Of a stretch of 64,000 nucleotides of DNA, positions 1-60,798 are shown piece by piece. The stretch's first letter is position 1. The number at the start of each line of letters is the position of its first letter. A program made the translations under genes and the position numbers. The notes beneath the pieces are model-generated. The model was not told the DNA's origin. It did not search any database and was given only the letters and a program-made list of their open reading frames with translations. This DNA is from Escherichia coli. GTDB taxonomy: Bacteria > Pseudomonadota > Gammaproteobacteria > Enterobacterales > Enterobacteriaceae. The DNA lies in the NCBI RefSeq assembly GCF_045037415.1, contig NZ_CP173438.1; one strand, 5' to 3'.

Positions 1-72
1 GAAGGCAAAGCGCGGTTAACGACTGACCCCGTCAGCGGGCGGCGTGCGCGGTGTTCCGGTTTGACTCCGTGA
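1..72 (+). CDS. 3' fragment of an upstream phage gene (by position possibly terminase small subunit gpM)
   Basis: Open frame from window edge to TGA at 70-72, immediately upstream of gpL; too short to identify. Confidence 0.25.
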   Translation, partial: EGKARLTTDPVSGRRARCSGLTP

Positions 73-111
73 CCGTTTACACCGCGCACCCACCGCCCGA
101 TTTTTTCAGGA

Positions 112-615
112 GTGAACCCCATGAGTATGGTTGCCAGAACTAACCCCGGCCCCGCAGAGGACGACATCACCGACACCGATGATGGCGATACCCGTATTTC
201 AGCGGGTGCATTCTGGCCGGATATTGTGCTGCGCGAGCTGCGTCTGGCGGTACGACTGCCGGGCCGCGTGACCACCTCCCGCCTGCTGCATACCGCCACC
301 GGGGCCATAGCACACGTTACCCGCGAGCTGGAAGCATGGCAGCAGGAACAACAGGCGGCTGGCTATCAGACGCTGGCCGATGTTCCGGCCCCTGTAATTA
401 ACGGAGAAAGCGTCAATCTCTGGCACTGGCGCAATGCTGTTTATACCGCCACACGCGCCCTGATTCTGGAGCGTTACCGCGATGCGGACACAACGGACAA
501 GGGCGACCGCCGGGCGGACGCACTGGATATACAGACATCGGATTTGTGGCGCGATGTGAGCTGGGCCATCTCTGACATTCTGGGACGACCGCGAATGTTT
601 GCGGAGCTGTGCTGA
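112..615 (+). CDS. phage capsid completion / head stabilisation protein (P2 gpL-like)
   Basis: 167 aa ORF; size and position immediately before gpX and lysis genes match P2 L; sequence resembles gpL family from memory. Confidence 0.7.
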   Translation: MNPMSMVARTNPGPAEDDITDTDDGDTRISAGAFWPDIVLRELRLAVRLPGRVTTSRLLHTATGAIAHVTRELEAWQQEQQAAGYQTLADVPAPVINGESVNLWHWRNAVYTATRALILERYRDADTTDKGDRRADALDIQTSDLWRDVSWAISDILGRPRMFAELC

Positions 616-815
616 TGAAAGTGAAGGCACTGGAAGGCGACACCGTGGATTCGCTCTGTTTCCGGTACTACGGCACGACACAGGGCGTCACCGAAAAGGT
701 GCTGGATGCCAACCCCGGACTCTGTCAGCAGGTATTTCTGGACGCCGGGCAGGAAGTGGAGATGCCGGAGCCGGAGAAGAAGAAACGAGAAATGATTCAG
801 TTGTGGGGGGAGTAG
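609..815 (+). CDS. phage tail protein X (P2 gpX-like, LysM-like)
   Basis: 68 aa ORF overlapping end of L; conserved position and size of P2 X. Confidence 0.65.
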   Translation: MLMKVKALEGDTVDSLCFRYYGTTQGVTEKVLDANPGLCQQVFLDAGQEVEMPEPEKKKREMIQLWGE

Positions 816-817
816 CA

Positions 818-1141
818 GTGAGCACCATTCAAACAGGGATCACAGAGCAGGTTATTGCGTGGCTCTTTGACCACCTGCCAACGGTGTATGCAGTAGGCGC
901 GGCGGTCAGCATTTCCGCGCTGATGAGTCTTTATGACGGACGAACACTGGTTCAGACCGTAACGGGATCGCTGGCGTGCGGCGTTCTTGCCATGGCCGTG
1001 GCCGGGTCGCTGCGCTTCTTCGGGATCCCTGAGGATGCAGTGACGTTTTTTGGTGCCTCAATCGGTTTTATGGGCGCAGAGAAAGCACGCGACAAGGTTA
1101 TTGCAATATTTGATCGCAGGGTGAAGGAGAGGAACGAATGA
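818..1141 (+). CDS. putative holin
   Basis: GTG start right after X stop; ~107 aa with 2-3 hydrophobic segments (VYAVGAAVSISALMSLY, LACGVLAMAVAGSL, FFGASIGFM) and charged C-terminus; precedes endolysin. Confidence 0.5.
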   Translation: MSTIQTGITEQVIAWLFDHLPTVYAVGAAVSISALMSLYDGRTLVQTVTGSLACGVLAMAVAGSLRFFGIPEDAVTFFGASIGFMGAEKARDKVIAIFDRRVKERNE

Positions 1142-1530
1142 GCAACACATTTAAATTCAGCAGCCGGAGCGAAAAGAATTTGCAGGGTGTAAATCCTGAT
1201 CTGGTGAAAGTGACCCGACGGGCGCTGGAAATCTCGGAAGTGGATTTTGGTATCACCGAAGGATTGCGCAGTCGTTATCGTCAGAAGCAGCTCGTGACCA
1301 CAGGCAAGAGCCAGACCATGAACAGTCGCCATCTCACAGGGCATGCCGTGGATGTTGTGGCTTATGTCGGCAACCAGGTGTCATGGGAATGGCCGCTGTA
1401 CGAAAAAATCGCAGCAGCATTCAGACAGGCCAGCCAGGAACTGAATATTCCGGTGGAATGGGGCGGCGACTGGAAGACCCTGAAAGACGGACCGCATTTT
1501 CAGTTACCACACGGAGCCTATCCGGCATGA
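1138..1530 (+). CDS. endolysin, peptidase M15-type (L-alanyl-D-glutamate endopeptidase-like)
   Basis: 130 aa; N-terminal pattern (..VNPDLVKVTRRALEIS..DFGITEGLRS..) and H..D..H spacing typical of small phage M15 endolysins; ATGA overlap with holin and Rz. Confidence 0.7.
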   Translation: MSNTFKFSSRSEKNLQGVNPDLVKVTRRALEISEVDFGITEGLRSRYRQKQLVTTGKSQTMNSRHLTGHAVDVVAYVGNQVSWEWPLYEKIAAAFRQASQELNIPVEWGGDWKTLKDGPHFQLPHGAYPA

Positions 1531-1922
1531 AGCTCTGGCCCACGCTTGGCGTCGCTTTCCTTCTGATTACATCCATGCGTCTGTCGTGGTCGCTGGGCCG
1601 GGAGAACGCCAGAAACGAAGCGCAGGCCAGCACCCTGAAAAGTACCGTCGACACACTGAATATCATCAGCGCCGGGGTACAGGATATGCAGCAGGTGCTG
1701 GCTCAGCTCCGCGCGGAAAATCAGCAACGCAATCAGGACGGAGAGGTAAGACGTGAACAGCTACGCAACGATATTGCAAAAGATGAATGCGCCCACGCTT
1801 TGCCTGACGCTCGTTTTACTGACAGGTTGCGCAGGCACGCAGAACGCGCCAGGGCCAGCGCCGTCAGTCCGGCTTATACCGCAGACGCTGACCATGCCGG
1901 TAACGCCTCCCCCCTTCCCTGA
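1527..1922 (+). CDS. i-spanin (Rz / P2 LysB-like)
   Basis: 131 aa, N-terminal TM (LWPTLGVAFLLITSM) followed by coiled-coil-like charged region; overlaps endolysin stop. Confidence 0.6.
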   Translation: MKLWPTLGVAFLLITSMRLSWSLGRENARNEAQASTLKSTVDTLNIISAGVQDMQQVLAQLRAENQQRNQDGEVRREQLRNDIAKDECAHALPDARFTDRLRRHAERARASAVSPAYTADADHAGNASPLP

Positions 1923-2064
1923 CCCACCCACATGGGGAAACCTCGGAATATGGGGCGACCGCCTTCTGGATGCACTGGAAACCTGTAACGCGGATAAACG
2001 GGCCATTGCTGAACTGGATAAGAGAATAGCCGAACTGACACACCAGACGGGAGTAACACAATGA
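1753..2064 (+). CDS. o-spanin lipoprotein (Rz1 / P2 LysC-like), overlapping Rz in another frame
   Basis: Lipobox LLTGC after signal-like segment, proline-rich stretch (PVTPPPFPDPP); start may be ATG 1753 or 1783. Confidence 0.55.
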   Translation: MNSYATILQKMNAPTLCLTLVLLTGCAGTQNAPGPAPSVRLIPQTLTMPVTPPPFPDPPTWGNLGIWGDRLLDALETCNADKRAIAELDKRIAELTHQTGVTQ

Positions 2065-3938
2065 CCAGTAAGAACTTTGCACTGATTACAGCCATGACAC
2101 AGGCTGAACTGACTCAAAAGGTGAATGAACATCTTGCGAAAGGGTGGCATCTTCAGGGGGAGACGCGGGTTGCCTACGAACCCGGCACCCCGTGGTATCT
2201 AATGCAGGCAATGGTGGCCGATGGCACTACAGACATCTCACCTGATTCCCCCCAGCACGGCAGCGTGCCGGAGTGGTATTACGTGGTGGTACTTGCTGGT
2301 CAATCCAATGCCATGTCATATGGTGAGGGAATGCCGCTGCCGGATTCTTACGATGCGCCCCACCCACGCATTAAGCAACTGGCCCGTCGCAACACAGTGA
2401 CTCCCGGTGGTAAAGCATGCGCATTTAACGACATCATTCCGGCAGACCACTGCCTGCATGATGTTCAGGATATGAGCGCACTGAATCACCCGAATGCAGA
2501 CCTGAGCAAAGGGCAGTATGGCTGTGTCGGACAGGGCTTGCATATTGCCAAACGCCTGTTGCCTTACATTCCACAGAATGCCGGGATTTTACTGGTTCCA
2601 TGCTGTCGTGGTGGTTCGGCATTCACCCAGGGCGCGGAGGGGACATTCAGCGAGTCCACAGGAGCCAGTCAGGATTCGGCTCGCTGGGGTGTGGGTAAAC
2701 CTTTATATCAGGACCTGATTTTGCGCACGAAGGCCGCATTGCAGAAAAACCCAAAAAACATGCTGCTGGCCGTATGCTGGATGCAGGGCGAATTTGACAT
2801 GAGCGCCGCTACGTACTCACAGCAACCTCCGCTGTTTACGGCCATGCTGAAACAGTTTCGTGCGGACATTACCGAGTTTAACACGCAGTGTCATGGAGGC
2901 AGAGCGGCAAGTGTGCCATGGATTTGTGGTGACACGACGTATTACTGGAAAAACACCTACGGCACGCAGTACGACACCATTTACGGGGCGTACAAAAACA
3001 GGGAGAGCGACAACGTTTTCTTTGTGCCGTTCCTGACCGATGGTAGTGGCAACAATACCTCCACCAACGCACCAACGGAAGATCCGGATGCTGCAAGTGA
3101 GGGATATTACGGTTCGGCATCCCGAACGAACAAAAACTGGGTATCATCAAATCGCCAGACGCATTTCAGCTCATGGGCGCGTCGTGGCATTATTCCCGAT
3201 CGTATGGCAACCGCTATTCTGAACGTAGCCGGTCGCACCTTAGCCTTCATCAGTGGTAAGGCACCGGAAATCAAACCCTCGCCCGGCGGCGACACGCCAT
3301 CGGGGCCGTCTGAAGATGCATCCGTACGCACAATCTCCCTGTTGCCGACAGCCGGAGATGCTGCTGCGCAGGGCTGGAGCATTAAGAATGGCGGAATTCA
3401 GTTGTCAGAGGGTGTATTTAAGATCACCAAGCAGAGCAATAAAGCCTGGTCCCTGACGCGCCCGGTGGATGACGCAGTCTCCCTGCTGACACGGGGTGGC
3501 AGACTGAGCTGTAAGTTTCGACTGTCAGGCGCACTGACCAACAATCAGTTCGGTCTGGGAATTTATCTGTATACCGATGTAGCGTTACCTGACGTCGTGG
3601 CGATGACCGGGACTGGTAACCCGTTCCTGATGTCGTTCTTCACCCAGACCACAGACGGCAAACTGAATCTGATGCATCACAAGAAAGCAGGAAACACAAA
3701 GTTGGGCGAGTTCGGGAATTACAGTAACGACTGGCAGACGCTGGAGCTGGTGTTCACCGCCGGCAGTGCCACGGTTACTCCGAAACTGAATGGAGTGGCT
3801 GGCCCGGCATTCCAGGTCATAAAAGACAGTCTGACACTGGGGCTGAATGCGCTGACGTTAACTGATATCACTAAAAATGCCGCGTACGGCGTCGATATCG
3901 GCAGCCTGGTGCTGGAAATCAATAATCCCGCAGCATAA
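2061..3938 (+). CDS. prophage cargo protein: DUF1737-like N-terminal domain + SGNH/DUF303-type esterase (NanS-p-like putative sialate O-acetylesterase) + C-terminal beta-rich domain
   Basis: 625 aa; N-terminus ...ITAMTQAELTQKVNEHLAKGWHLQGE... resembles DUF1737; motif VVLAGQSNAMSYGEG resembles the GQSN block of SGNH/DUF303 esterases; located between lysis cassette and tail gene R, where P2 has no gene. Confidence 0.55.
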   Translation: MTSKNFALITAMTQAELTQKVNEHLAKGWHLQGETRVAYEPGTPWYLMQAMVADGTTDISPDSPQHGSVPEWYYVVVLAGQSNAMSYGEGMPLPDSYDAPHPRIKQLARRNTVTPGGKACAFNDIIPADHCLHDVQDMSALNHPNADLSKGQYGCVGQGLHIAKRLLPYIPQNAGILLVPCCRGGSAFTQGAEGTFSESTGASQDSARWGVGKPLYQDLILRTKAALQKNPKNMLLAVCWMQGEFDMSAATYSQQPPLFTAMLKQFRADITEFNTQCHGGRAASVPWICGDTTYYWKNTYGTQYDTIYGAYKNRESDNVFFVPFLTDGSGNNTSTNAPTEDPDAASEGYYGSASRTNKNWVSSNRQTHFSSWARRGIIPDRMATAILNVAGRTLAFISGKAPEIKPSPGGDTPSGPSEDASVRTISLLPTAGDAAAQGWSIKNGGIQLSEGVFKITKQSNKAWSLTRPVDDAVSLLTRGGRLSCKFRLSGALTNNQFGLGIYLYTDVALPDVVAMTGTGNPFLMSFFTQTTDGKLNLMHHKKAGNTKLGEFGNYSNDWQTLELVFTAGSATVTPKLNGVAGPAFQVIKDSLTLGLNALTLTDITKNAAYGVDIGSLVLEINNPAA

Positions 3939-3961
3939 GGAAGAGCAGGAGAGCAAAACAG

Positions 3962-4429
3962 ATGCTTAAGACAAACAGTCTGCGAGAGTCCATGCTTCAT
4001 GGGTGTCGGTGGTGCCAGGCTAATCCCGAGAAATTCACCATTTTCGTGGAGAGCGGCAACATTGAAACGACCGGAGAAGCGCCCTCGTTTGTTTACCGCT
4101 ATCAGATGGTGATGTTTGTCATGGATTACGCCGGAGAGCTGGACGACCTCACGCTGCCGCTGCTGGCGTGGTTATCCGAAAATCAGCCACAGTTGTTGCT
4201 CAATCCGGAGCGTAATCAGGACATCAAATTTTCTGCCGTTATCAATGACGATGACAGCGCCGATCTCCTGTTTACGCTCCCCCTGCGGGAACGCGTTCGC
4301 ATCACGCGCAACAGTCAGGGCACACCGCAGGCAGAACACCTGCCGGAGCCAAAACCCCGTCTGCCTTCTTCCGAAGGCGACTGGTCGCATGTATTCCAGG
4401 ATGTGACGTGGGGTGAAAGCGATGGATAA
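3962..4429 (+). CDS. phage tail completion protein (P2 gpR-like)
   Basis: 155 aa, position and size match P2 R. Confidence 0.7.
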   Translation: MLKTNSLRESMLHGCRWCQANPEKFTIFVESGNIETTGEAPSFVYRYQMVMFVMDYAGELDDLTLPLLAWLSENQPQLLLNPERNQDIKFSAVINDDDSADLLFTLPLRERVRITRNSQGTPQAEHLPEPKPRLPSSEGDWSHVFQDVTWGESDG

Positions 4430-5057
4430 GGCATTCACCCGCGTGGATGAAACCTTTGAGGCTATCCGCGACAGCCTGAATCAGCAGGCCATCAATAACA
4501 TCGCCAGAAAGCTGGCACAGGATTTACGTCGCGCCCAGCAGGCACGTATCCGGTCACAAAAAGCGCCGGACGGGACCGAATGGACACCACGCAGACGCCG
4601 CGTAACCCGGATACAGGAGCGCATTCGCTTTATCTGGAATAACGAAGCACGCACGCTGAAAAACTGGCATCACGACACAGGGAAATACGGGCGAACCATT
4701 ACCGGGTGGGATGAGGATAAAAACAATATCCGCACGTTTTACCGGGATGACATCGACCGTTTTCTGGAAATACGCACCCGGCGCATCAACCAGGACAGCA
4801 CAAAGCGCGTCCCCATGTTCGTAAAACTGCGCACCGCCCGCTACCTGAAAGCCCGTGCAGATGCCTCCGGTGTGACGGTGGGTTACAGCGGCGTGGCCGC
4901 ACGTATTGCACGCGTTCATCAGTTCGGTGAGCGCGATCAGGTTGCGCCGGGCATTTTCACCGATTACCCGGTACGTGAGCTGTTGGGTATCAGCCAGGCA
5001 GATGAGCGCCTGATTTATAACACGGTGCTGGGCCGGATTGCGGAGGCTGTACGGTGA
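4413..5057 (+). CDS. phage tail completion / virion morphogenesis protein (P2 gpS-like)
   Basis: 214 aa, overlaps R end, precedes V. Confidence 0.7.
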   Translation: MKAMDKAFTRVDETFEAIRDSLNQQAINNIARKLAQDLRRAQQARIRSQKAPDGTEWTPRRRRVTRIQERIRFIWNNEARTLKNWHHDTGKYGRTITGWDEDKNNIRTFYRDDIDRFLEIRTRRINQDSTKRVPMFVKLRTARYLKARADASGVTVGYSGVAARIARVHQFGERDQVAPGIFTDYPVRELLGISQADERLIYNTVLGRIAEAVR

Positions 5058-5635
5058 GCGCAGAACTCATGCGACTGCTGAGCAACATCATCCGCACCGG
5101 GATCATCTCTGAAGTTGATGAGAAGTCCTGGCGCGTGCGCGTTCGCAGCGGCGAACTGGAAACAGGCTGGTTGCGCTGGAACACCACGCGCGCGGGAGCC
5201 TTCAATGTGTGGCTGCCGCCATCACCAGGCGAACAGGTGGTAATTGCCTGCATTGGCGGCAACCCGGAAACCGCCATGATAATTGGCAGCCTGTGGAGTG
5301 ATGCCAGTCCGGCCCCCGGCAAAAGCCTGAAAGAAATCGTGGTCAGCGCGCCGGATGGCGCGGTGTTCCGCTACGACGCAGACGCTGGCGCACTGAGCGC
5401 CAGCGGCATGAAAACAGCCACCCTGCAGGCATCCGTCAGCGTGACACTGGATACGCCCGTCGTGGAATGCACAAACCTTCTGAGAACGGCGACGCTTGAC
5501 GTCACAAAAGAGGGAAAGATGAGCGGCAATATCACGCACAGCGGCGGCAATTTCACCTCAAACGGCATTACCGTGCATACGCATAAGCACGGTGGCGTTA
5601 AAGGTGGCAGCGATTCGACAGGAGGCCCGCAGTGA
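5054..5635 (+). CDS. baseplate assembly protein V (spike; P2 gpV-like)
   Basis: 193 aa, GTG start; gpV-like N-terminal OB region. Confidence 0.8.
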   Translation: MSAELMRLLSNIIRTGIISEVDEKSWRVRVRSGELETGWLRWNTTRAGAFNVWLPPSPGEQVVIACIGGNPETAMIIGSLWSDASPAPGKSLKEIVVSAPDGAVFRYDADAGALSASGMKTATLQASVSVTLDTPVVECTNLLRTATLDVTKEGKMSGNITHSGGNFTSNGITVHTHKHGGVKGGSDSTGGPQ

Positions 5636-5982
5636 CAACCCGCTACACAGGAATGAACCCGGACGGGACGGGAAACCTGAACGATATGGAGCACCTGAAA
5701 CAGTCAGTCAGGGACATCCTGATCACCCCGCTGGCAAGCCGGGTTATGCGACGGGAATATGGCAGCCTTGTGCCTGATTTGATTGACGAACCCATGAATA
5801 ACACCACGCGTCTGCAATGCATGAGTGCTGCCGTGATTGCGCTGACACGATGGGAACCCCGCATTGCCCTGGACGCCATCGACGTTGTCTGGAAGGCAGG
5901 AGGCCGCGCCGGGGTGACGCTGTCGGGCACTGTCATGCAGACCATGCAGAATGTTGAATTAACCATCACGCTGAGAGAGTAA
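5632..5982 (+). CDS. baseplate protein W (gp25-like; P2 gpW)
   Basis: 116 aa, GTG start overlapping V stop; matches gpW/GPW_gp25 family features. Confidence 0.8.
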   Translation: MTTRYTGMNPDGTGNLNDMEHLKQSVRDILITPLASRVMRREYGSLVPDLIDEPMNNTTRLQCMSAAVIALTRWEPRIALDAIDVVWKAGGRAGVTLSGTVMQTMQNVELTITLRE

Positions 5983-5985
5983 ATC

Positions 5986-6882
5986 ATGCCTGCTGTTGAT
6001 CTTTCCCAGTTACCGGAACCCGCCATCATCGCGGAGCCTGATTTTGAGGCAATTCTGGCTGACACAAAGGCCATGATGATTGCGTCCTATCCTGCCGAAC
6101 AGCGTGAAGCCGTCTCCGCCGCGCTGGAGCTGGAATCAGAACCCCTGAACGTTATCGCTCAAACCATGTCGTTTCGTGAAATGCTGTTACGCCAGCGGGT
6201 TAACGAGGGCGCACGCGCCTGCATGTTAAGCCACGGTTCAGGGACAAACCTGGACAACCTCGCGGGCAATATGAACACAAAGCGCCTGGTTATCACTCCG
6301 GCAACGGATACCACCGACGCGGTGATGGAGAGCGACACCTCGCTGAGACTGCGGGCGCAGCGGGCGTATGACGGCCTGAGTGTTGCTGGCCCGTCAGGTG
6401 CATACGAGTATTTTGCACGCAGCGCCAGCGGTCTGGTGCGTGATGCGCGGGCCATCAGCCCGTCTCCGGCCTGTGTGACGGTTTCCATTCTGTCCACTGA
6501 AGGCGACGGCACAGCAACGGAGGCGTTGCTTAATACCGTTCGCGCCGTTCTGAATGCAGAGGATACCCGCCCGGTGGCCGACCGACTGACCGTACAGAGC
6601 GCCAGCATCGTGACATGGCGGCTGAATGCAAAACTGTACTTTTACCCCGGCCCGGAATCCGAACCTATTCTGGCTGCGGCTGAATCGTCGTTCAGGAAGT
6701 GGCTGGCTGAGCAGGGGCTTATTGGTCAGGACGTGGCGTTGTCAGCCATTGCTGCCGCACTTCATGTGCACGGCGTGCAACGCGTGGAGATAATCGAACC
6801 CACACAGAATATGGCCATCAGCGACATACAGGCGGCGCGCTGTGAGTCATTCACCATCAGCGAAGGTGGGCGTAATGAGTAA
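5986..6882 (+). CDS. baseplate protein J (P2 gpJ-like)
   Basis: 298 aa, conserved baseplate J position and size. Confidence 0.85.
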   Translation: MPAVDLSQLPEPAIIAEPDFEAILADTKAMMIASYPAEQREAVSAALELESEPLNVIAQTMSFREMLLRQRVNEGARACMLSHGSGTNLDNLAGNMNTKRLVITPATDTTDAVMESDTSLRLRAQRAYDGLSVAGPSGAYEYFARSASGLVRDARAISPSPACVTVSILSTEGDGTATEALLNTVRAVLNAEDTRPVADRLTVQSASIVTWRLNAKLYFYPGPESEPILAAAESSFRKWLAEQGLIGQDVALSAIAAALHVHGVQRVEIIEPTQNMAISDIQAARCESFTISEGGRNE

Positions 6883-7405
6883 TTCACTGTTACCGCCATC
6901 AGCCAGCAATTTCATGCGTTGCGCCGAAGCTGTCGGAGCGCGCATTACAGACATCCCGGTAGACCTCAACACGCTGTGGTCACCGGACACCTGCCCGGTG
7001 CATCTGCTGCCTTATCTCGCCTGGGCATTTTCCGTTGACCGCTGGGATCGCAACTGGCCGGAAGAGACAAAGCGACAGGTGATTCGTGATGCATGGCTGA
7101 TACACCGACACAAAGGGACCATCAGCGCACTGCGCCGGGCCATTGAGCCGCTGGGATACCTCATTCGCGTGTCTGAGTGGTGGGAGTTCGGCGGAGAACC
7201 GGGAACATTTACCGTTGAAGTCGGCACGCTGGACAGTGGCGTGACGGAGGAAATGTATCTGGAAATGGAGCGGTTGATTGCTGATGCCCGCCCGGTCAGC
7301 CGCCACATGACAGGGCTGAATATCATTCAGGAGATTCAGGGAGATATTTTCGCGGCGGCAGCAACTTACGACGGCGAAGTCATTACCATTTATCCGGACG
7401 ATTAA
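6875..7405 (+). CDS. tail protein I (P2 gpI-like)
   Basis: Start ATG at 6875 with RBS GAAGGTGG overlapping J stop; 176 aa. Confidence 0.8.
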   Translation: MSNSLLPPSASNFMRCAEAVGARITDIPVDLNTLWSPDTCPVHLLPYLAWAFSVDRWDRNWPEETKRQVIRDAWLIHRHKGTISALRRAIEPLGYLIRVSEWWEFGGEPGTFTVEVGTLDSGVTEEMYLEMERLIADARPVSRHMTGLNIIQEIQGDIFAAAATYDGEVITIYPDD

Positions 7406-7407
7406 GC

Positions 7408-16529: not shown

Positions 16530-17713
16530 CAGGCACCTCCCAGCACCGCAAATGCGGGACCAAAGAATTCATCAGTAAACGTCTGGTAAAGCTCCATGTC
16601 TTCCAGCGGGGGAACGGGCGTATATTTGTAGCGAATACGCACACGCCCCTGACGTAAATCCGTGGTGCCGTTATCCACCACGTCATACCAGCACTCCGCG
16701 CCAATCAGTTTCCCGGCAGTAACCAGCGAATCCAATTTTGCCCTGATGGCACTGATAACATCCTTCACGTTCGCAGGCGTCAGTGGACTGTCGATGGTTT
16801 CAAACTGCGCTTCCGCAATTGAATCAGCCAGCACCTGTGCGGTTCGGGTATACACCTCAAAGATGTAGGCGTTCGTTTCCGGTGTGCGGTTGCCCCAGAA
16901 GCGGAACCCGTTACGACGAATAATGGTCGTGATTTCTTTGTTGTTGAGGCTGTTGGCATCACTGTCTTCGGCCTGTAACGACCAGAACACATGCCTCGAC
17001 ATCCCCAGCACATTTTTAACCGGAACGTTGGACAGCGATTTGTGCCAGCCCTGCTCATGGTCAATGTACGCACGAAGGCCGCACGCATAAGCAGGCGCGG
17101 GGAACGTTTCGTTTTTGCCACTTTTCGGGTTGTAGGCGATGAAGTCAGGCCATAAGAGCATCACCTCACGTTCGTTGAATTTCTGGCGGTAGGTAATCGC
17201 CTCAGCCATCGTGTTACAACCATGACATGTGGCATACACAAACGCGCGCAGTTTACCCGCAATCACGCACAGGGATTTTGTCACCGCCTCCGTGTCCAGC
17301 TCCGGCGCGGCCAGAATACGCGGACGGTATCCGATGCTTTCATCCTGCTCTGCAACAAGCAGCGCATACATCCCCGTATAGCTGCCGTCAGATTCAGAAC
17401 CACCGATAACCAGTTGATCCTGCGTCCTACCGCCTTCTTCTTTGTGTTCAGCCACGCGAACGACGATCACTTTTGTGCTCACCTGGTCTGCGATAGCCTT
17501 AAGCGCACGATAAAGCGTCCCCGTAGTCCCGCATTTTCCCAGCACGTCATTGACGCGGGTCAGCAGTGTGGGCTTGTTCAGCGGGAACAGCTCCGCATCC
17601 GCATCATCCGCCGTTGCCACGATACCGATAACGCTGGAATCAACATCATTAATCGCTGTTACCAGGTCGGTACTTTCCGTGACACGGGCACCATGAAAAC
17701 GAGTTTCACTCAT
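16529..17713 (-). CDS. tail sheath protein (P2 gpFI-like)
   Basis: 394 aa; motifs ...ADDADAE.FPLNKP.L...GTL..L.AIADQ...; ...QGWHK.LSNV...; ...DGFRFWGNRT...NYTRTAQV.AD..AEA match gpFI as recalled. Confidence 0.9.
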   Translation of the reverse strand: MSETRFHGARVTESTDLVTAINDVDSSVIGIVATADDADAELFPLNKPTLLTRVNDVLGKCGTTGTLYRALKAIADQVSTKVIVVRVAEHKEEGGRTQDQLVIGGSESDGSYTGMYALLVAEQDESIGYRPRILAAPELDTEAVTKSLCVIAGKLRAFVYATCHGCNTMAEAITYRQKFNEREVMLLWPDFIAYNPKSGKNETFPAPAYACGLRAYIDHEQGWHKSLSNVPVKNVLGMSRHVFWSLQAEDSDANSLNNKEITTIIRRNGFRFWGNRTPETNAYIFEVYTRTAQVLADSIAEAQFETIDSPLTPANVKDVISAIRAKLDSLVTAGKLIGAECWYDVVDNGTTDLRQGRVRIRYKYTPVPPLEDMELYQTFTDEFFGPAFAVLGGA

Positions 17714-17870
17714 AGCTTCAGCCCCTTGTATCCGTTAAATGATTCGGCAACAATCATCACCCACCACGCGCGTAATCTCACCCCTGCGCCGTTCTCCCGC
17801 CACGGCGACAACAAAAAGCAGTAACCCCCTCCGCACGCACATGCGACCATGCCGCACAGGGAGGGAGCAG

Positions 17871-18980
17871 ATGACCGACACCACCATGCAATTGCTCAGT
17901 CAGGGCACAGACCCCGTGAAAATGCCGGATTTTGATATTCTCGCGGAGGGTAAAACGCTGTCAGGCGTGGCAGAGCGCCTGATGAGCCTGTCACTGACCG
18001 ACAACCGGGGATTTGAGGCGGACCAGCTCACCATCACGCTGGATGATGCGGATGGTCAGTTGCAGCTACCGCCACGGGGCGCGCGCCTGACGGTTCTCAT
18101 TGGCTGGAAAGGAGAACCGCTGACAGAAAAAGGCACTTACATTGTTGATGAAATCGCTCACGAAGGACCGCCGGACAGGCTGACTGTTTCAGCCAGAAGC
18201 GCAGATTTTCGGGATGAATTTAACGTTAAACGTGAGGTGTCCTGGCATGATGTGACCGTTGAGCGTGTGGTATCCGCCATCGCTCATCGGTATGGTCTGA
18301 AACCGCAAATCAGCGAAATGCTGATGGATATCGAAATCGACCACGCCGACCAGACCGAAGAAAGCGACATGTCCTTCCTTACGCGCATGGCGGAAATGCT
18401 GGGCGCAATCACCACGGTAAAAAGCGGTAATCTGTTATTCATCATGCCCGGCGGTGGCGTGAACGCACAGGGCCAGCCGTTGCCATCGTTTGCCATCACA
18501 CGCAGCAGCGGCGATCGCCATCAGTTCCGCATTGCTGACCGCGAAGCGTATACGGGGGTACGCGCTTACTGGCTTGATCTTAATTACGGGAAAAAGAAAA
18601 AAGTCAGCGTGAAACGCCGTAAACCGCCAAAACCCAAAAAGGAGAAAAGCAGCAGCCGCGAAGGTGATTATATGGAAGGCGCGGAAGGCAATGTGTTTGT
18701 GTTACGCAAGACTTATCAGAACGAGCAGGCAGCAAGACGCGCAGCGGCGGCAAAGTGGCAGCAACTACAACGCGGAGCCGCATCATTCTCCATCACGCTG
18801 GCGCGTGGACGTGCAGAACTCTACCCCGAAATGCATGGCACGGTAACAGGATTTAAAAGCGAGATTGATAATCAGGACTGGATCATTGCAAAAGCCGAGC
18901 ACACCATTGATAACAGCGGTTTTACCACGCAGCTTGAGCTTGAGGCAAAAATCCCGGAATGGATAGCGGAAACAGAGTGA
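17871..18980 (+). CDS. tail protein D (P2 gpD-like late control D family)
   Basis: 369 aa from ATG 17871 with RBS GGGAGGGA; gpD-like sequence; ORF-track start 17739 is probably an upstream extension. Confidence 0.85.
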   Translation: MTDTTMQLLSQGTDPVKMPDFDILAEGKTLSGVAERLMSLSLTDNRGFEADQLTITLDDADGQLQLPPRGARLTVLIGWKGEPLTEKGTYIVDEIAHEGPPDRLTVSARSADFRDEFNVKREVSWHDVTVERVVSAIAHRYGLKPQISEMLMDIEIDHADQTEESDMSFLTRMAEMLGAITTVKSGNLLFIMPGGGVNAQGQPLPSFAITRSSGDRHQFRIADREAYTGVRAYWLDLNYGKKKKVSVKRRKPPKPKKEKSSSREGDYMEGAEGNVFVLRKTYQNEQAARRAAAAKWQQLQRGAASFSITLARGRAELYPEMHGTVTGFKSEIDNQDWIIAKAEHTIDNSGFTTQLELEAKIPEWIAETE

Positions 18981-19020
18981 GCAACTTAGAATAGGCAGCA
19001 CCACGTTAAGGGAGGTCGCT

Positions 19021-19281
19021 ATGTTCCGTTGTCCGCTTTGTGGCGCATCTGCCCGTATCCGCACCAGTCGTCCGGAAAATGATTCAAACACCGTGCGGCA
19101 AAAGTATTACCAGTGTAACAATCTGGAATGCGGCGTATGCTTCTCAACACTGGAAGCTTTCCATAAATTCACATCAAAACACGCCTCCGGCGTTCACTCT
19201 TCAGAAGGTATCCCGTGGCATGATCTGCCAGCTTCACACAGGGGAAACAATCAGATGAGTTTGCCTTTATCTCAGAATTAA
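19021..19281 (+). CDS. late-gene transcriptional activator, Ogr/Delta zinc-finger family
   Basis: 86 aa; MFRCPLCGASARIRTSR...YYQCNNLECGVCFSTLEAF with the Cys-x2-Cys...Cys-x4-Cys pattern of P2 Ogr. Confidence 0.85.
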   Translation: MFRCPLCGASARIRTSRPENDSNTVRQKYYQCNNLECGVCFSTLEAFHKFTSKHASGVHSSEGIPWHDLPASHRGNNQMSLPLSQN

Positions 19282-19369
19282 CAGGCAGAATTGCCGGAGT
19301 AACAAAAAAGCGATAGATTACGTGCGGGTGCCTTTCGGCTGATGGTCGGAGGGAATACCCGAAGGCCAG

Positions 19370-19555
19370 ATGTGGAAAGGCCCCGAGTCAACTTTAACGT
19401 TAACCCGAGGCCCTAACCATCTACCCTCAGCAAGTGATAGGTTAGCGCCTCCCCGAAAAAGGAGCAAGCGCTATGTCGCAAAAATCGCTTACGGCCATCA
19501 CATTCTGCGTGACGGCAATCCTCATCATCTGGATGCTGCACGGTTCGCTGTGTGA
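19370..19555 (+). CDS. mok-like overlapping reading frame of hok locus (translational coupling frame)
   Basis: 61-codon frame starting ~100 nt upstream of and overlapping the hok-like ORF in a different frame, as in hok/mok/sok loci. Confidence 0.4.
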   Translation: MWKGPESTLTLTRGPNHLPSASDRLAPPRKRSKRYVAKIAYGHHILRDGNPHHLDAARFAV

Positions 19556-19613
19556 AATACGGATGAGTTTCTGGGGAGCGGAGTTTGCGGCGTTCTTACA
19601 GTGTAAGCAGTAA
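19473..19613 (+). CDS. Hok/Gef-family type I toxin (46 aa)
   Basis: MSQKSLTAITFCVTAILIIWMLHGSLCEIRMSFWGAEFAAFLQCKQ: single TM then conserved SLCEIR and E.AAF motifs of Hok/Gef; below the 60-aa ORF-track cutoff, found by reading the DNA. Confidence 0.7.
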   Translation: MSQKSLTAITFCVTAILIIWMLHGSLCEIRMSFWGAEFAAFLQCKQ

Positions 19614-19706
19614 GGAAACCGCGACGGGGAAGGCAACTTCCCCGTCAATCGGTTGCCAGGGTAAAGGTCGAAAAGGCACCCTATTTCCAGTTGACGTGAA
19701 CAACAA

Positions 19707-19740
19707 GCCCGCAGCGTAAAAACTGCGGGTTTTCTTTTTG
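19707..19740 (+). terminator. rho-independent terminator, probably 3' end of hok mRNA
   Basis: CCCGCAGCGTAAAAACTGCGGG + TTTTCTTTTTG. Confidence 0.55.
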
Positions 19741-19770
19741 GTTCCCTCACTCATGAGGACACCAAAAAAC

Positions 19771-19802
19771 AAAGCCCACAGCATAGAAGCTGTGGGCTTT
19801 TT
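19771..19802. terminator. bidirectional hairpin terminator
   Basis: AAAGCCCACAGCATAGAAGCTGTGGGCTTTTT with A/T runs on both sides. Confidence 0.5.
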
Positions 19803-19876
19803 GCATTCAAAGATGGACGTTATATGGACACTTAAAAATAAAATCCATTTATTTTCAAATGATTAAACCTCTACTT

Positions 19877-19898
19877 AAAGCGCCCGCAGGCGCTTTTT
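19877..19898 (-). terminator. serS terminator (bidirectional hairpin)
   Basis: AAAGCGCCCGCAGGCGCTTTTT immediately downstream of serS stop. Confidence 0.6.
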
Positions 19899-19918
19899 AG
19901 ATTCAGAAAAATTGGGTA

Positions 19919-21232
<1,314 letters not shown>

Positions 21233-23425: not shown

Positions 23426-26400
23426 TTAGTCAAACGGCGGTGGGGCCAGCACTTCACGATTACCGTTGTGCCCCTGTTCGCTGACAATCCCCTGCGCTTC
23501 CATCTGTTCGATAATACGCGCTGCACGGTTATAACCAATGCGGAACTGACGCTGTACGCCAGAAATTGATGCTTTGCGTTTTTCAGTGACAAACTGCACC
23601 GCCTGATCGAACAACGGATCCAGCTCTTCAGCGCCATCGAAACCGCCCGCGCCACCTTCGCTTTCGCTGTCGGAGGTGATGCCATCAACATACTGTGGGC
23701 GACCACGCGCTTTCCAGTCCTGCACCACGGCATGAACTTCTTGATCGCGAACAAAAGCACCATGGACACGTACCGGCAAAGTGGAGTTCGGCCCAGAGTA
23801 GAGCATATCCCCCATACCCAGCAGTGATTCCGCACCAGCCTGATCAAGAATGGTACGTGAGTCAATCTTACTGGATACGGTAAAGGCGATACGGGTCGGA
23901 ATATTCGCTTTAATCAGACCAGTAATAACATCAACCGATGGACGCTGCGTTGCCAGTACGAGGTGGATACCCGCGGCACGAGCTTTTTGCGCCAGACGTG
24001 CTATCAGCTCTTCCACTTTTTTACCTACCGTCATCATCAGGTCGGCAAATTCGTCCACCAACACCACTATGTACGGTTCTTTTTTCAGCACCGGATGCTG
24101 CGCATCCATACTATCACCCGGCTTCCAGTACGGGTCTGGAATCGGACGCATCATGCGATCGGCTTCAGCAATTTTTTCGTTATAACCCGCCAGATTACGC
24201 ACACCCAGCGCAGACATCAGTTTATAACGACGCTCCATCTCGTTAACACACCAGCGCAGCGCGTTGGCGGCATCTTTCATATCAGTAACAACTTCCGTTA
24301 ACAGGTGCGGAATGCCTTCATAAACCGAAAGCTCCAGCATTTTCGGGTCGATCATGATGAAACGCACATCTTCTGGCTGTGCTTTATAAAGCATGCTCAG
24401 GATCATCGCGTTCACCCCGACAGACTTACCGGAACCGGTAGTCCCCGCAACCAACAAGTGCGGCATTTTCGCCAGATCGGCAACCACCGGCTCACCGGCG
24501 ATATCTTTACCCAGCACCACGGTTAATGGCGACGGATTATCGCGGAATTTGGCGTTATCCAAAACCTCGCGCAGATAAACGGTTTGTCGTTTTTTATTCG
24601 GTAACTCCAGACCTACATAGGGTTTGCCAGGAATAACTTCAACGACACGCACCGCCACCGTCGAAAGTGAACGGGCAAGGTCACGTGACAAGTTAGAAAT
24701 GCGCGCCGCTTTTACGCCCGGTGCCAGGTTCAATTCAAAGCGAGTGATAACTGGCCCCGGAGAGTAATTGACAACATCGGCTTTAATACGGAAATCAGCC
24801 AGACGCGCTTCTACCAGGCGCGCCATTTGTTCAAGCGCAAAGGTATCTACCGGCTCCACTTCGCTCGGCGGCGGTGTCAGCAAATCCAGAGAAGGCAGTG
24901 GCGTCGTCGGTTTATGCAACGGACGGCTGTCGCCATTACGCATCAACAGCGGATGAAGCAGGGTATCCTGCGGCTGTGGCGCAACTGGCTGTTGCGGCTG
25001 CTGATATTGCGGCTGTGGTACAACCGGCTGCTGCGGCTGCTGATACTGCGGCTGCTGTGTAACCGGCTGTTGTGGCTGCTGATACTGCGGCTGCTGTGCA
25101 ACCGGTTGTTGTGGCTGCTGATATTGCTGCTGCGGTGCAACCGGTTGTTGCGGCTGCTGATACTGCGGCTGCGGTGCAACCGGTTGTTGCGGCTGCTGAT
25201 ATTGCTGCTGCGGTGCTACCGGTTGTTGCGGCTGCTGTACAGGTTCAACAATTGGCGTAAACAGCGGTTCGTGTGGACCATCATCCAGCAACGCTTTCAT
25301 TGGCGAAAATTCAAAATCATCCAGCGAGAACGGATTCGCCCCAGCCGGTTGTTCGCCGGAATAACGTTGTTGTTGAGTTTGAGCAAACTGACGAGCCAGT
25401 TCTGCCTCTGCCGCAGCATCTGCATCTTCTGTGTTCACGGGCACATCATGTTGATACTGTTCGCCATAGCGTTGCTGCTGCGTCTGGGCGAACTGACGTG
25501 CCAGTTCATCCTGCTGCATCGCATCGATTTCATCATCGTTGTACTGATCGCCAGAATCGTACTGATTACGCTGGGCTTCACGGGCTTTTTCTTCTGCCGC
25601 ACGCTGTGAGGGCAGCTTAATACCGTAAGACGCCAGTTCACGACGAGTTGGCACGCGGATGCGTTTCGGTCGTGGCAACTGCGGGCCAATCCCCTCTTTG
25701 ACCTGCGGACGCGGTCCACCGCTATTTGCCAGACTGAAGACTGGCGCGGCAACGGTTGCGGCAGCCCCCGTCGCCAGTGTCGCTTTTTTCACGCCAGATG
25801 CCAGCGGAGAAACGGCGGCAGCGGCTTCCACTGGAGGTACTGCTGCAACAGAAGGTGCTTTTAGCGAAGATTTGATCGGTTCTGGTTCTTTAACAGGTTC
25901 TGGAATCGGTTGATACCAGGCCGCAAGTTGTTCGCGTTCACGGGCTCGCTTCTCTTCCACTTCTTCAAAGTAGTAAAGCGGCGGACGCGTGGGTTTTGTC
26001 TCTTCTACAACGGGTTCAGGCTCCACAACAGGCTGCTGTTCAACAGGTTGCGGCTGTTGGTACAACGGTTCCTGAGCGGCTGGCTGCTGATAAGTTTGCT
26101 CAGTCTGGTATGTAGACTGTGGAGCAAAAGTGGATTGCTGCTCTTCGGCTTGCCAGGCGTTACCTGCCACCGCTTGTTCTGGCGCAGGGGCGTAATACGG
26201 CTGTTGCGCAGGCTGTTCCGCCGCAGTTGCGTAATACGGTTGCTGAACAGGTTGTTCCGCCGCAGGAGCGTAGTAAGGTTGTTGCGCAGGTTGTTCAGCT
26301 GCAGGTGCATAATACGGCTGCTGTGGCTGTACTGGTTGTTGCAGCGGCTCATTATATTGCACTGCAGGCTGCGCATATTGTGGCTGCTGTGGGTAACCTT

Positions 26401-34783: not shown

Positions 34784-34871
34784 GGTGAGGTGTCCGAGTG
34801 GCTGAAGGAGCACGCCTGGAAAGTGTGTATACGGCAACGTATCGGGGGTTCGAATCCCCCCCTCACCGCCA
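34784..34871 (+). tRNA. serW: tRNA-Ser (anticodon GGA)
   Basis: GGTGAGGTGTCCGAGTGGCTGAAGGAGCACGCCTGGAAAGTGTG...GGTTCGAATCCCCCCCTCACCGCCA: acceptor stem pairing, long variable arm, T-loop GGTTCGAATCC, 3' CCA. Confidence 0.93.
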
Positions 34872-34922: not shown

Positions 34923-35003
34923 CTGCCTGTACGGCAGTGAACTTGTCATTATTGGCAGACAGGATCCGCGGCAATTTCTAAGCTGCCTGTACGGCAGTGA
35001 ACT
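34923..35003 (+). repeat. two copies of a 21-bp direct repeat (CTGCCTGTACGGCAGTGAACT) spaced 60 bp apart downstream of serW
   Basis: Exact copies at 34923-34943 and 34983-35003; each contains short dyad CTGCC..GGCAG. Confidence 0.8.
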
Positions 35004-45489: not shown

Positions 45490-45665
45490 AGCTAAGCCAC
45501 ATATTGCCACTGGCGCAAGGAGCGTGCAGGGGGCGGCCAATCGCCGCCGCCCCCTGCACCCCCGGGCTCTGGCGAACAAAATCGCCGCTGCGCGGTGCCC
45601 TCGACTTATCCCTTACGGCTACCGGGTCGGCGATTTTGACGCCACCAACACCGGTGCGGTTTGTA
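45490..45665. other. GC-rich, highly structured intergenic element (nested perfect hairpins)
   Basis: 14-bp perfect stem GTGCAGGGGGCGGC/GCCGCCCCCTGCAC and 10-bp stem AAAATCGCCG/CGGCGATTTT in an otherwise AT-rich intergenic region. Confidence 0.5.
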
Positions 45666-59808: not shown

Positions 59809-59825
59809 TGTAGCTGCATGCTGAT

Positions 59826-60772: not shown

Positions 60773-60798
60773 AAAGCCGCACCTGCGGCTTTTTTATT
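60773..60798. terminator. bidirectional terminator between artJ and rlmC
   Basis: AAAGCCGCACCTGCGGCTTTTTTATT. Confidence 0.6.

What the first reader, a model, noticed from the sequence alone, without database searches (positions are those of the whole stretch)
1..19918. P2-like prophage abutting the 3' end of serS; attachment site and integrase not in window
The host gene order is otherwise colinear with K-12 (potH...serS), where serS is followed by dmsA. Here serS is followed by the ogr/D end of a P2-like prophage, so the serS-dmsA intergenic region (or a site near it) has been used as an integration site. In P2-type phages attP lies between ogr and int, so the junction should fall in 19282-19900, but with only one end in the window the core repeat cannot be identified.
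Basis: partly seen in the sequence, partly recalled or inferred. Interest (0 to 1): 0.4.

Follow-up and report, generated by a model that had tools for sequence, protein, structure and literature searches.

The report
Known P2-like prophage beside serS

Summary
Confirmed and already known. Window 1-19896 is the late-gene half of a 38,657-bp P2-like prophage of the P88 type (genus Xuanwuvirus). It runs from the head completion gene L to D, ogr and hok.

Window 1-22785 is 100% identical to E. coli ST131 chromosomes. In those, the rest of the element lies just left of the window, directly followed by dmsA: int, C, cox, A, ParM, Q, P, O, N and M.

The right junction is inside the window. attR is an exact 20-bp core, AAAGCGCCCGCAGGCGCTTT, at 19877-19896. 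It is repeated once next to int, and it is single-copy in K-12, where it forms the serS terminator hairpin.

Of 5,425 complete E. coli genomes, 350 have the serS-dmsA spacer interrupted. Exactly 350 carry this integrase joined to the dmsA-side flank.

The att region is laid out as in P2, with tandem 11-bp-spaced arm repeats on both arms.

The prophage matches EC958 Phi1: its two published 26-bp invertase crossover sites are both present. It also matches NS30 GI-3.

Extras found in the window:
- a NanS-p-type sialate O-acetylesterase gene inserted between lysC and R
- an invertible tail-fibre segment
- a hok/sok-like module between ogr and attR

Interest is low.

The parts
1..19 (+). last 19 nt of gpM (terminase small subunit), cut by the window start
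   Evidence: RefSeq annotation of the identical chromosome NZ_CP032201.1 (window x = L001 x+26716)
121..815 (+). L (head completion, 121-615) and X (tail protein, 615-815)
   Evidence: 39% and 48% aa identity to P2 L and X; annotation
818..2064 (+). lysis cassette: holin 818-1141, M15 endolysin 1138-1530, DUF2570/LysB-like 1527-1922, Rz1-like LysC 1876-2064
   Evidence: annotation; no P2 counterpart by BLASTP; 95.5% nt identity to P88
2061..3938 (+). nanS-p-type sialate 9-O-acetylesterase cargo gene (625 aa), part of a 1,995-bp block (2009-4003) absent from P88
   Evidence: Pfam DUF1737+SASA+DUF6645. E. coli NanS 3pt5 E=1.7e-125 and NanS-p C-domain 6yp6 E=1.7e-29, with the GQSN and HFSS motifs aligned. 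Best phage homologues are lambdoid Stx phages, about 80% aa. Insertion relative to P88.
3962..7405 (+). tail completion and baseplate genes: R 3962-4429, S 4422-5057, V 5069-5635, W 5632-5982, J 5986-6882, I 6875-7405
   Evidence: 26-61% aa identity to the P2 proteins of the same name, in the same order
7408..9929 (+). expressed tail fibre H (7408-9393) and fibre assembly protein G (9396-9929)
   Evidence: 51% and 58% aa identity to P2 H and G
8672..11445 (.). 2,774-bp invertible tail-fibre segment, bounded by 26-bp crossover sites at 8672-8697 (+) and 11420-11445 (-). It holds the alternative G' (9958-10485, -) and H' C-terminal exon (10487-11380, -).
   Evidence: Inverted repeats, 170 nt at 89% and 330 nt at 72%. 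Both sites are identical to the published EC958 Phi1 sites; the paper reports about 50% of PacBio reads inverted.
11500..12099 (+). serine DNA invertase (Gin/Cin/Hin type)
   Evidence: phrog_125 DNA invertase E=1.1e-96; annotation
12128..17713 (-). tail block U 12128-12616, T 12629-15436, E' 15423-15578, E 15587-15961, FII 16017-16529, FI 16529-17713. It is inverted relative to P2, as in P88.
   Evidence: 34-46% aa identity to P2 U, T, E, FII and FI; same orientation in P88 and opposite in P2
17714..17870 (.). 157-bp divergent control region between FI (-) and D (+)
   Evidence: sequence; no P2-type TGT-N12-ACA dyad here
17871..18980 (+). gpD (369 aa). The true start is the ATG at 17871, preceded by GGAGGGAG.
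   Evidence: phrog_52 match starts at residue 43-45 of the 413-aa ORF; 49% identity to P2 D over 376 aa; sequence
19021..19281 (+). ogr/Delta-type zinc-finger late activator (86 aa)
   Evidence: phrog_603 E=4e-15; NCBIfam PRK09678 hit below cut-off; 42% identity to P2 Ogr
19326..19613 (+). hok/sok-like type I toxin-antitoxin: leader/sok region 19326-19486, Hok-family toxin 19473-19613, and an overlapping mok-like ORF 19370-19555
   Evidence: phrog_251 E=1.3e-22; Rfam sok RF01794 42.8 bits, E=3e-8, below the gathering score of 59; ORF list
19705..19800 (.). two terminator-like hairpins: 19705-19732 (+, after hok) and 19771-19800 (12-bp stem flanked by an A run and a T run, so usable on both strands)
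   Evidence: terminator scan; fold
19813..19831 (+). P-arm tandem repeats ATGGAC-N5-ATGGACAC (putative arm-type Int sites), followed by an AT-rich stretch resembling the P2 IHF site
   Evidence: The motif occurs only twice in the 38.7-kb prophage, once in each att arm. P2 has tandem TGTGGACA-type repeats annotated as Int sites at the same places.
19877..19896 (+). attR core AAAGCGCCCGCAGGCGCTTT, which is the stem-loop of the serS intrinsic terminator
   Evidence: exact direct repeat 38,657 bp apart in L001; single copy in K-12; K-12 homology starts at 19877; empty-site genomes match up to the last core base
19919..21211 (-). serS (host gene abutting the prophage)
   Evidence: annotation; K-12 colinearity

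Best explanation
Window 1-19896 is the right (late-gene) half of an integrated temperate myophage of the P2 family, P88 type. It is the element published as prophage Phi1 of E. coli ST131 EC958.

Its P2-family tyrosine integrase recombined a 20-bp attP core with the identical sequence that forms the serS terminator stem-loop. That sequence lies 22 bp downstream of the serS stop codon, in the serS-dmsA spacer. The resulting order is dmsA-attL-int...D-ogr-hok-attR-serS.

Shown:
- the position and exact limits of the core
- the complete gene set in chromosomes identical to the window
- the one-to-one link between this integrase and occupancy of this site
- a P2-like layout of the att arms

Inferred:
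- Int binds the tandem ATGGAC(AC) arm repeats and the dyad-symmetric core.
- The prophage can still excise and form virions.
- The insertion leaves serS with the hairpin but only 3 of its 7 U residues. A phage-borne hairpin about 75-105 nt further on would then stop read-through. The full hairpin plus U7 now follows int.
For: Identity: the window is 100% identical to many ST131 chromosomes over 1-21300 and to L001 through 22785.

Gene set: the full gene map of that chromosome is. P2 orthology and gene order are, and P88 architecture and identity.

Core: an exact repeat; junction sequences against K-12 attB; K-12 homology starts at 19877.

Specificity: 5,075 of 5,425 genomes have an intact spacer. 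Exactly 350 have the attL flank joined to this int, and the empty sites match up to the last core base.

Arm repeats and comparison with annotated P2 attP. Int is 51% identical to P2 Int.

Published record: EC958 Phi1 crossover sites are identical, with inversion seen in PacBio reads. NS30 GI-3 is a 38,659-bp P88-like phage downstream of serS.

Terminator: folds and scan.
Against: The DNA left of window position 1 cannot be seen. Completeness is inferred from identical chromosomes, and only one was read in full (L001); the rest is counts. More genomes hold at least 80% of the left half (274) than of window 1-21300 (192), so mosaics exist at this site.

No excision, induction or virion data were examined. 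No P2-type TGT-N12-ACA activator site and no P2 cos sequence was found, so regulation and packaging details differ from P2. The effect on serS termination is a structure prediction only.
Confidence: 0.95

Rival explanations
1. It is a defective remnant or a domesticated tailocin-like cluster: tail and lysis genes only, with no functional early region.
For: Only late genes are visible in the window. RefSeq shortens gpD to 266 aa in one record. GenBank 'phage' records for this element are partial.
Against: Identical chromosomes carry int, C, cox, A, portal, terminase and capsid genes, with no pseudogene flags except the expected H' exon. gpD has an intact 369-aa frame with a Shine-Dalgarno sequence. 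Head completion gene L is in the window. Both att copies are exact. The invertase is active in EC958.
Confidence: 0.04
2. The source genome carries a mosaic: the same right half, but a different or truncated left half, or a different gene on the far side.
For: Mosaicism exists at this site. The counts are 350 genomes with this int, 274 with at least 80% of the left half and 192 with at least 80% of the right half. One ST131 genome has an IS421 in the left half.
Against: All 25 listed top hits are 100% identical over 21.3 kb and are ST131-type chromosomes. More genomes have the left half than the right half. Every interrupted site carries this int next to dmsA.
Confidence: 0.05

Closest known systems
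Prophage Phi1 of E. coli O25b:H4-ST131 EC958 (Forde et al. 2014, PMC4134206), also described as GI-3 of ST131 strain NS30 (PMC12632120)
   Same: Both published 26-bp crossover sites are present with zero differences, 2,774 bp apart against the published 2,773-bp segment. The size (38,657 bp against 38,659 bp) and the position downstream of serS match NS30 GI-3. The window is 100% identical to ST131 chromosomes.
   Different: Nothing detectable. In the passages I read, the papers do not describe the att core as the serS terminator, nor the nanS-p cargo.
Escherichia phage P88 (Xuanwuvirus, Peduoviridae; NC_026014)
   Same: Same architecture, including the inverted FI-U block, the invertase with an invertible fibre segment, ParM/ParR and hok next to ogr. 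77% of the prophage aligns at 94.6% nt identity.
   Different: The integration and immunity block differs: int is only 50% identical. P88 lacks the 20-bp core. The P arm (window 19740-19896) and int-C-cox do not align. P88 has no nanS-p cassette. The fibre tips differ.
Bacteriophage P2 (Peduovirus P2)
   Same: Orthologous late genes in the same order. D-ogr lies next to attP, and attP lies between ogr and int. Tandem 11-bp-spaced arm repeats sit on the P arm and inside the 3' end of int, with an AT-rich IHF-like stretch between the P arm and the core. Int is 51% identical.
   Different: There is almost no nucleotide similarity. FI-U is inverted and separated from D. The lysis genes are different. 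No TGT-N12-ACA dyads and no P2 cos were found. The att core and host site are different. An invertase module sits in place of Z/fun. The nanS-p and hok genes are extra.
NanS-p esterases of Stx-converting lambdoid phages (933W, phi24B vb_24B_21)
   Same: Same three-domain build, DUF1737 + SASA esterase + C-terminal lectin-like domain. Up to about 80% aa identity.
   Different: The carrier is a P2-family myophage, and the gene sits after the lysis genes (lysC) and before tail gene R. No activity data exist for this allele.

Membership tests
P2-like temperate phage (Peduoviridae) | P2 set of late genes in P2 order (L X lysis R S V W J I H G; FI FII E E' T U; D; ogr) | tested here: met
   19 of 27 window products hit the P2 protein of the same name and position. 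The only exception is that the FI-U block is inverted, as in P88.
P2-like temperate phage (Peduoviridae) | Ogr/Delta zinc-finger late activator next to D | tested here: met
   phrog_603 E=4e-15; 42% identity to P2 Ogr; the NCBIfam hit (44.6 bits) is below the cut-off of 116
P2-like temperate phage (Peduoviridae) | attP between ogr and int, with arm-type tandem repeats on both arms, the P' arm lying in the 3' end of int | tested here: met
   Core at 19877-19896. ATGGAC-N5-ATGGACAC lies 64 bp left of the core and 110 bp right of it (inside int), and nowhere else in the prophage. P2 annotation for comparison.
P2-like temperate phage (Peduoviridae) | P2-family tyrosine integrase, C repressor/Cox switch and gpA replication nuclease | tested here: met
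   Seen in the identical chromosome, outside the window: int 51%, C 35% and A 31% identity to P2. Cox is annotated but has no BLASTP hit to P2 Cox.
P2-like temperate phage (Peduoviridae) | Late promoters with the TGT-N12-ACA activator dyad (P2/186/P4) | tested here: not met
   No dyad in the FI/D intergenic region. The only two hits within 1-19896 lie inside coding regions, and the count is below chance expectation. This is a property of P2 and 186, not a family criterion.
P2-like temperate phage (Peduoviridae) | P2 19-nt cos sequence | tested here: not met
   No match with up to 3 mismatches in L001. The cos site of P88-type phages was not identified.
Genus Xuanwuvirus (P88-like) | At least about 70% nucleotide similarity over the genome to the type phage | tested here: met
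   One-way BLASTN: 77.4% aligned x 94.6% identity = 73%. This is a rough estimate, not a VIRIDIC value.
EC958 prophage Phi1 | The two published 26-bp crossover sites and the length of the invertible segment | tested here: met
   8672-8697 has 0 mismatches to Phi1_5prime. 11420-11445 is identical to Phi1_3prime. The span is 2,774 bp.
Invertase-switched tail fibre (Mu Gin / P1 Cin / e14 Pin type) | Serine invertase next to a segment bounded by inverted crossover sites, carrying alternative fibre C-termini and assembly genes | tested here: met
   Inversion was observed experimentally in EC958 (PMC4134206).
NanS-p sialate O-acetylesterase | DUF1737 + SASA/SGNH esterase domain with the GQSN serine and the C-terminal His, plus a NanS-p C-terminal domain | tested here: met
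   (the alignment to 3pt5 shows AGQSNAM and HFSS conserved)
NanS-p sialate O-acetylesterase | Esterase activity on Neu5,9Ac2 | not testable with these tools
   Needs an enzyme assay or a growth test
hok/sok type I toxin-antitoxin | Hok-family toxin with a folded leader and an antisense Sok RNA | tested here: inconclusive
   Toxin: phrog_251 E=1e-22, but NCBIfam scores are below the cut-offs. Rfam sok scores 42.8 bits against a gathering score of 59. The Sok promoter and transcript were not tested.

The most novel reading that the evidence does not exclude
Two untested consequences of this otherwise known prophage.

(a) Terminator swap. Integration gives the host hairpin plus U7 to int and leaves serS with the hairpin plus only UUU. 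The phage-borne two-way hairpin at 19771-19800 would then become the working serS terminator and would shield hok, ogr and D from antisense read-through.

(b) Cargo. The nanS-p cassette, otherwise typical of Stx lambdoid phages, gives ST131 and about 7% of complete E. coli genomes an extra sialate O-acetylesterase carried on a P2-family phage. I found no discussion of this for ST131 in two literature searches.
Probability: 0.3. Interest if true: 0.3.

Novelty: already known. Interest (0 to 1): 0.15.

Why it matters
The main value is to close the finding.

Some details are useful for annotation:
- the exact att core and its identity with the serS terminator
- the strict one-to-one link between this integrase and this site across 5,425 genomes
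- the correct gpD start
- the recognition of "DUF6645 protein" as a NanS-p-type esterase
- the warning that three GenBank "phage" records for this element contain host DNA and stop inside nanS-p

Tried and rejected
- P2-type activator dyad TGT-N12-ACA: 6 hits in the window against about 15 expected by chance, and none in late-promoter regions. A comparison of the P/O and FI/D intergenic regions gave only two short shared motifs of unclear meaning.
- P2 cos sequence: absent.
- Rfam at gathering threshold: nothing in the prophage part. Only a sub-threshold sok hit with the permissive search.
- PADLOC: no defence-system hit for NanS-p, Hok, G or G'.
- NCBIfam: no family for the 625-aa protein.
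- Same att core in P88: not present, so P88 uses another site.
- Isolated phages with this int: the only 3 records are mis-bounded prophage calls.
- Large inverted repeats flanking the FI-U block, which would explain its inversion by the invertase: none found. The orientation is fixed in the P88 lineage.
- Literature on the dmsA promoters, to judge whether the insertion cuts regulatory DNA: nothing usable found. 196 bp upstream of the dmsA ATG remain contiguous with the gene.
Full report
**What is in the sequence.** The ORF map of window 1-19918 shows three blocks. A plus-strand run of genes covers 121-9929. A minus-strand block covers 9958-11380. A second minus-strand block covers 12128-17713, followed by plus-strand genes up to 19613. 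serS is at 19919-21211 on the minus strand.

Megablast against 5,426 complete E. coli genomes found many chromosomes 100% identical over window 1-21300. Several of those listed are named as O25b:H4-ST131. I took one of them, NZ_CP032201.1, as locus L001. It is identical to the window base for base up to the end of the locus, at window 22785. Its RefSeq annotation names the window genes as follows:
- head completion and tail: L, X
- lysis: holin, M15 endolysin, LysB-like, LysC
- a "DUF6645" protein
- tail completion and baseplate: R, S, V, W, J, I
- tail fibre: H, G, G', and a partial H'
- a recombinase
- tail: U, T, E', E, FII, FI, D
- ogr and a Hok/Gef protein

**Direct test of "P2-like".** I translated the 27 window genes and compared them with the proteins of phage P2 (NC_001895). 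Nineteen hit the P2 protein of the same name at 25-61% identity (G' at 89%), in the P2 order.

There is one structural difference. The FI-FII-E-E'-T-U block lies on the opposite strand from D and ogr, whereas in P2 these genes form one operon.

Phage P88 (genus Xuanwuvirus, family Peduoviridae) has exactly this arrangement. It also shares the invertase, the ParM/ParR genes and the hok gene beside ogr. The whole prophage aligns to P88 over 77% of its length at 94.6% identity. Nucleotide similarity to P2 itself is almost nil. So the element is P2-like at family level and P88-like at genus level.

**The far side.** In L001 the element continues to the left of the window. It holds M, N, O, P, Q, a small variable region, ParR/ParM, the replication nuclease A, early genes, cox, a C-type repressor and an integrase. 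Directly after that come dmsA, dmsB and dmsC. Int is 51% identical to P2 Int, and C, A, Q, P, O, N and M all hit their P2 counterparts. A GenBank record from a UK isolate shows the same dmsA-int adjacency.

There is an early region and an integrase, and dmsA is on the far side.

**The attachment site.** A repeat search over L001 found one exact 20-bp direct repeat that brackets the element: AAAGCGCCCGCAGGCGCTTT. One copy lies between dmsA and int. The other is at window 19877-19896. They are 38,657 bp apart.

K-12 has a single copy in its 238-bp serS-dmsA spacer, starting 22 bp after the serS stop codon. Comparing the three junctions fixes the limits of identity exactly: the flanks diverge immediately on both sides of the 20 bp. 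Independently, BLAST homology between the window and K-12 starts at 19877 and then runs colinear to potH.

The statement that no attachment site lies in the window is not correct, because attR is there.

**Specificity of integrase and site.**
- 5,075 of 5,425 genomes have the serS-dmsA spacer uninterrupted, so 350 are interrupted.
- A query made of the dmsA-side flank, the core and this int gene is covered at 80% or more in exactly 350 genomes. In the others the match stops at the last base of the core.

So every occupied site in this collection carries this integrase.

P88 lacks the core and its Int is only 50% identical. The parts of the prophage that do not align to P88 include window 19740-19896 (P arm plus core) and the adjoining int-C-cox block. 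On the circular phage map these form one 3.0-kb module. An exchange of the integration and immunity module explains the different target.

**Layout of attP.** The motif ATGGAC-N5-ATGGACAC occurs only twice in the 38.7-kb prophage, in the same orientation. One copy is 64 bp left of the core, at window 19813-19831. The other is 110 bp right of the core, inside the 3' end of int.

P2 has tandem TGTGGACA-type repeats, annotated as Int binding sites, at the equivalent places. Between its P arm and its core P2 has an AT-rich IHF site that resembles window 19835-19865. Binding of Int and IHF here is inferred by analogy, not shown.

**Consequences for the flanking genes (inferred).** The core is the stem-loop of the serS intrinsic terminator. 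In K-12 the RNA would end in the hairpin followed by seven U residues. In the lysogen the hairpin is kept, but it is followed by UUUAAGUAGAGG. The host U7 tract now follows int.

About 75-105 nt further along the serS transcript lies a phage hairpin with a 12-bp stem, flanked by an A run and a T run. The terminator scan picks it up on the serS strand (19800-19771). I therefore think read-through from serS, if any, stops there. This needs 3'-end mapping.

On the other side, 196 bp upstream of the dmsA start codon stay contiguous with the gene. I could not establish whether all dmsA control sites lie within that stretch.

**Between ogr and attR.**
- The 46-aa ORF at 19473-19613 is a Hok-family toxin (phrog_251, E=1e-22). 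Its NCBIfam scores are below the cut-offs.
- The leader at 19326-19486 matches Rfam sok at 42.8 bits (E=3e-8), below the gathering score of 59.
- A mok-like ORF at 19370-19555 overlaps the hok start.

P88 and related phages carry the same gene. It is most likely a type I toxin-antitoxin module of the phage, but membership is only partly met.

**Cargo gene.** The 625-aa "DUF6645" protein (2061-3938) has three Pfam domains: DUF1737, SASA and DUF6645. It matches the E. coli NanS structure 3pt5 at E=1.7e-125, with the GQSN serine motif and the HFSS histidine motif aligned. It also matches the C-terminal domain of NanS-p, 6yp6.

Its phage homologues are almost all Stx-converting lambdoid phages, at up to about 80% identity. 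There, NanS-p enzymes are known to remove O-acetyl groups from sialic acids (review PMC8065619).

Relative to P88, window 2009-4003 (1,995 bp) replaces 93 bp between lysB/C and R. The lysB/C-nanS-p-R arrangement is covered at 80% or more in 372 complete genomes. Other P88-like prophages have lysC and R adjacent. No defence-system model matches the protein. I found no paper in the held library that discusses nanS-p in ST131.

**Invertible fibre segment and identity with a published prophage.** Inverted repeats of 170 nt (89%) and 330 nt (72%) bracket the G/G' region. The EC958 genome paper lists two 26-bp crossover sites for prophage Phi1. Both are in the window, at 8672-8697 (+) and 11420-11445 (-), with no differences from the published sequences. 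They span 2,774 bp, against a published segment of 2,773 bp.

That paper reports that about half of the PacBio reads carried the segment inverted. The invertase at 11500-12099 (phrog_125) is therefore active in that strain.

A second paper describes the same element in ST131 strain NS30 as GI-3, a 38,659-bp P88-like phage downstream of serS. The finding is therefore already in the literature.

**Small corrections to annotation.** gpD starts at 17871, an ATG preceded by GGAGGGAG, and is 369 aa long. The RefSeq call of 266 aa in NZ_CP032201.1 is too short. The H' "pseudogene" is the normal alternative exon of an invertible fibre gene.

**What led nowhere.** These are listed under Tried and rejected: the P2 activator dyad, the P2 cos site, Rfam at gathering level, PADLOC, NCBIfam for NanS-p, and flanking repeats that might explain the FI-U inversion.

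**Verdict.** The element is a known ST131 prophage of a known phage genus, integrated by a standard tyrosine-recombinase mechanism into a terminator hairpin. Novelty: already known. Interest: about 0.15.

The main residual uncertainty is that the left half is inferred from identical genomes and not seen in the window. The prophage's ability to excise and form virions was also not examined.

Noticed in passing
window 34975-35002 (-), next to the tRNA at 34784-34868 (+): A single type I-F CRISPR repeat (Rfam CRISPR-DR4, 50.1 bits against a gathering score of 35) sits beside a tRNA gene, which corresponds by position to serW of K-12, in the clpA-infA region. It looks like an orphan repeat with no array. 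The region is colinear with K-12.
   Followed up: partly
window 2061-3938: The gene that RefSeq labels 'DUF6645 domain-containing protein' is a NanS-p-type sialate O-acetylesterase. This cargo is typical of Stx lambdoid phages, but here it sits in a P2-family prophage between lysC and R. 372 complete E. coli genomes have this arrangement.
   Followed up: yes
GenBank ON470599.1, ON470623.1, PV468777.1 (L006 = ON470599.1 1-14000): Three 'phage' records for this element are mis-bounded prophage predictions. ON470599.1 begins with 11.6 kb of host DNA (ycaO, focA, pflB, pflA, ycaD, ycaC, dmsCBA) and ends inside nanS-p, so it lacks the whole tail half.
   Followed up: yes
window 17739-18980: RefSeq (NZ_CP032201.1) calls gpD as 266 aa starting at 18180 and adds a small antisense pseudogene at 18127-18219. 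The frame with a Shine-Dalgarno sequence starts at 17871 and gives 369 aa that align with P2 D over 376 positions.
   Followed up: yes
window 17714-17870 and L001 23823-23976: The two divergent late control regions (FI/D and P/O) lack the P2 TGT-N12-ACA dyad. They share two short motifs, GCCCyTTGTATC and AGATTACsCGCGCG, whose meaning is unknown. These may be the recognition elements of the 86-aa Ogr homologue.
   Followed up: partly
L001 17021-20000 (outside the window, left half of the prophage): ParM/ParR-like partition genes lie after the replication gene A. They are followed by a 1.8-kb block that does not align to P88 and holds two minus-strand genes (a hypothetical protein and a DUF4760 protein). 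This is the slot where P2 carries tin and old.
   Followed up: no
window 24968-26250 (ftsK): The alignment to K-12 breaks into overlapping pieces at 90-95% identity inside ftsK. This is consistent with a length polymorphism of the repetitive linker region.
   Followed up: no
window 45627-45630, 59817-59821, 60774-60791: Three small intergenic indels (about 70-150 bp) relative to K-12 in an otherwise colinear host segment.
   Followed up: no
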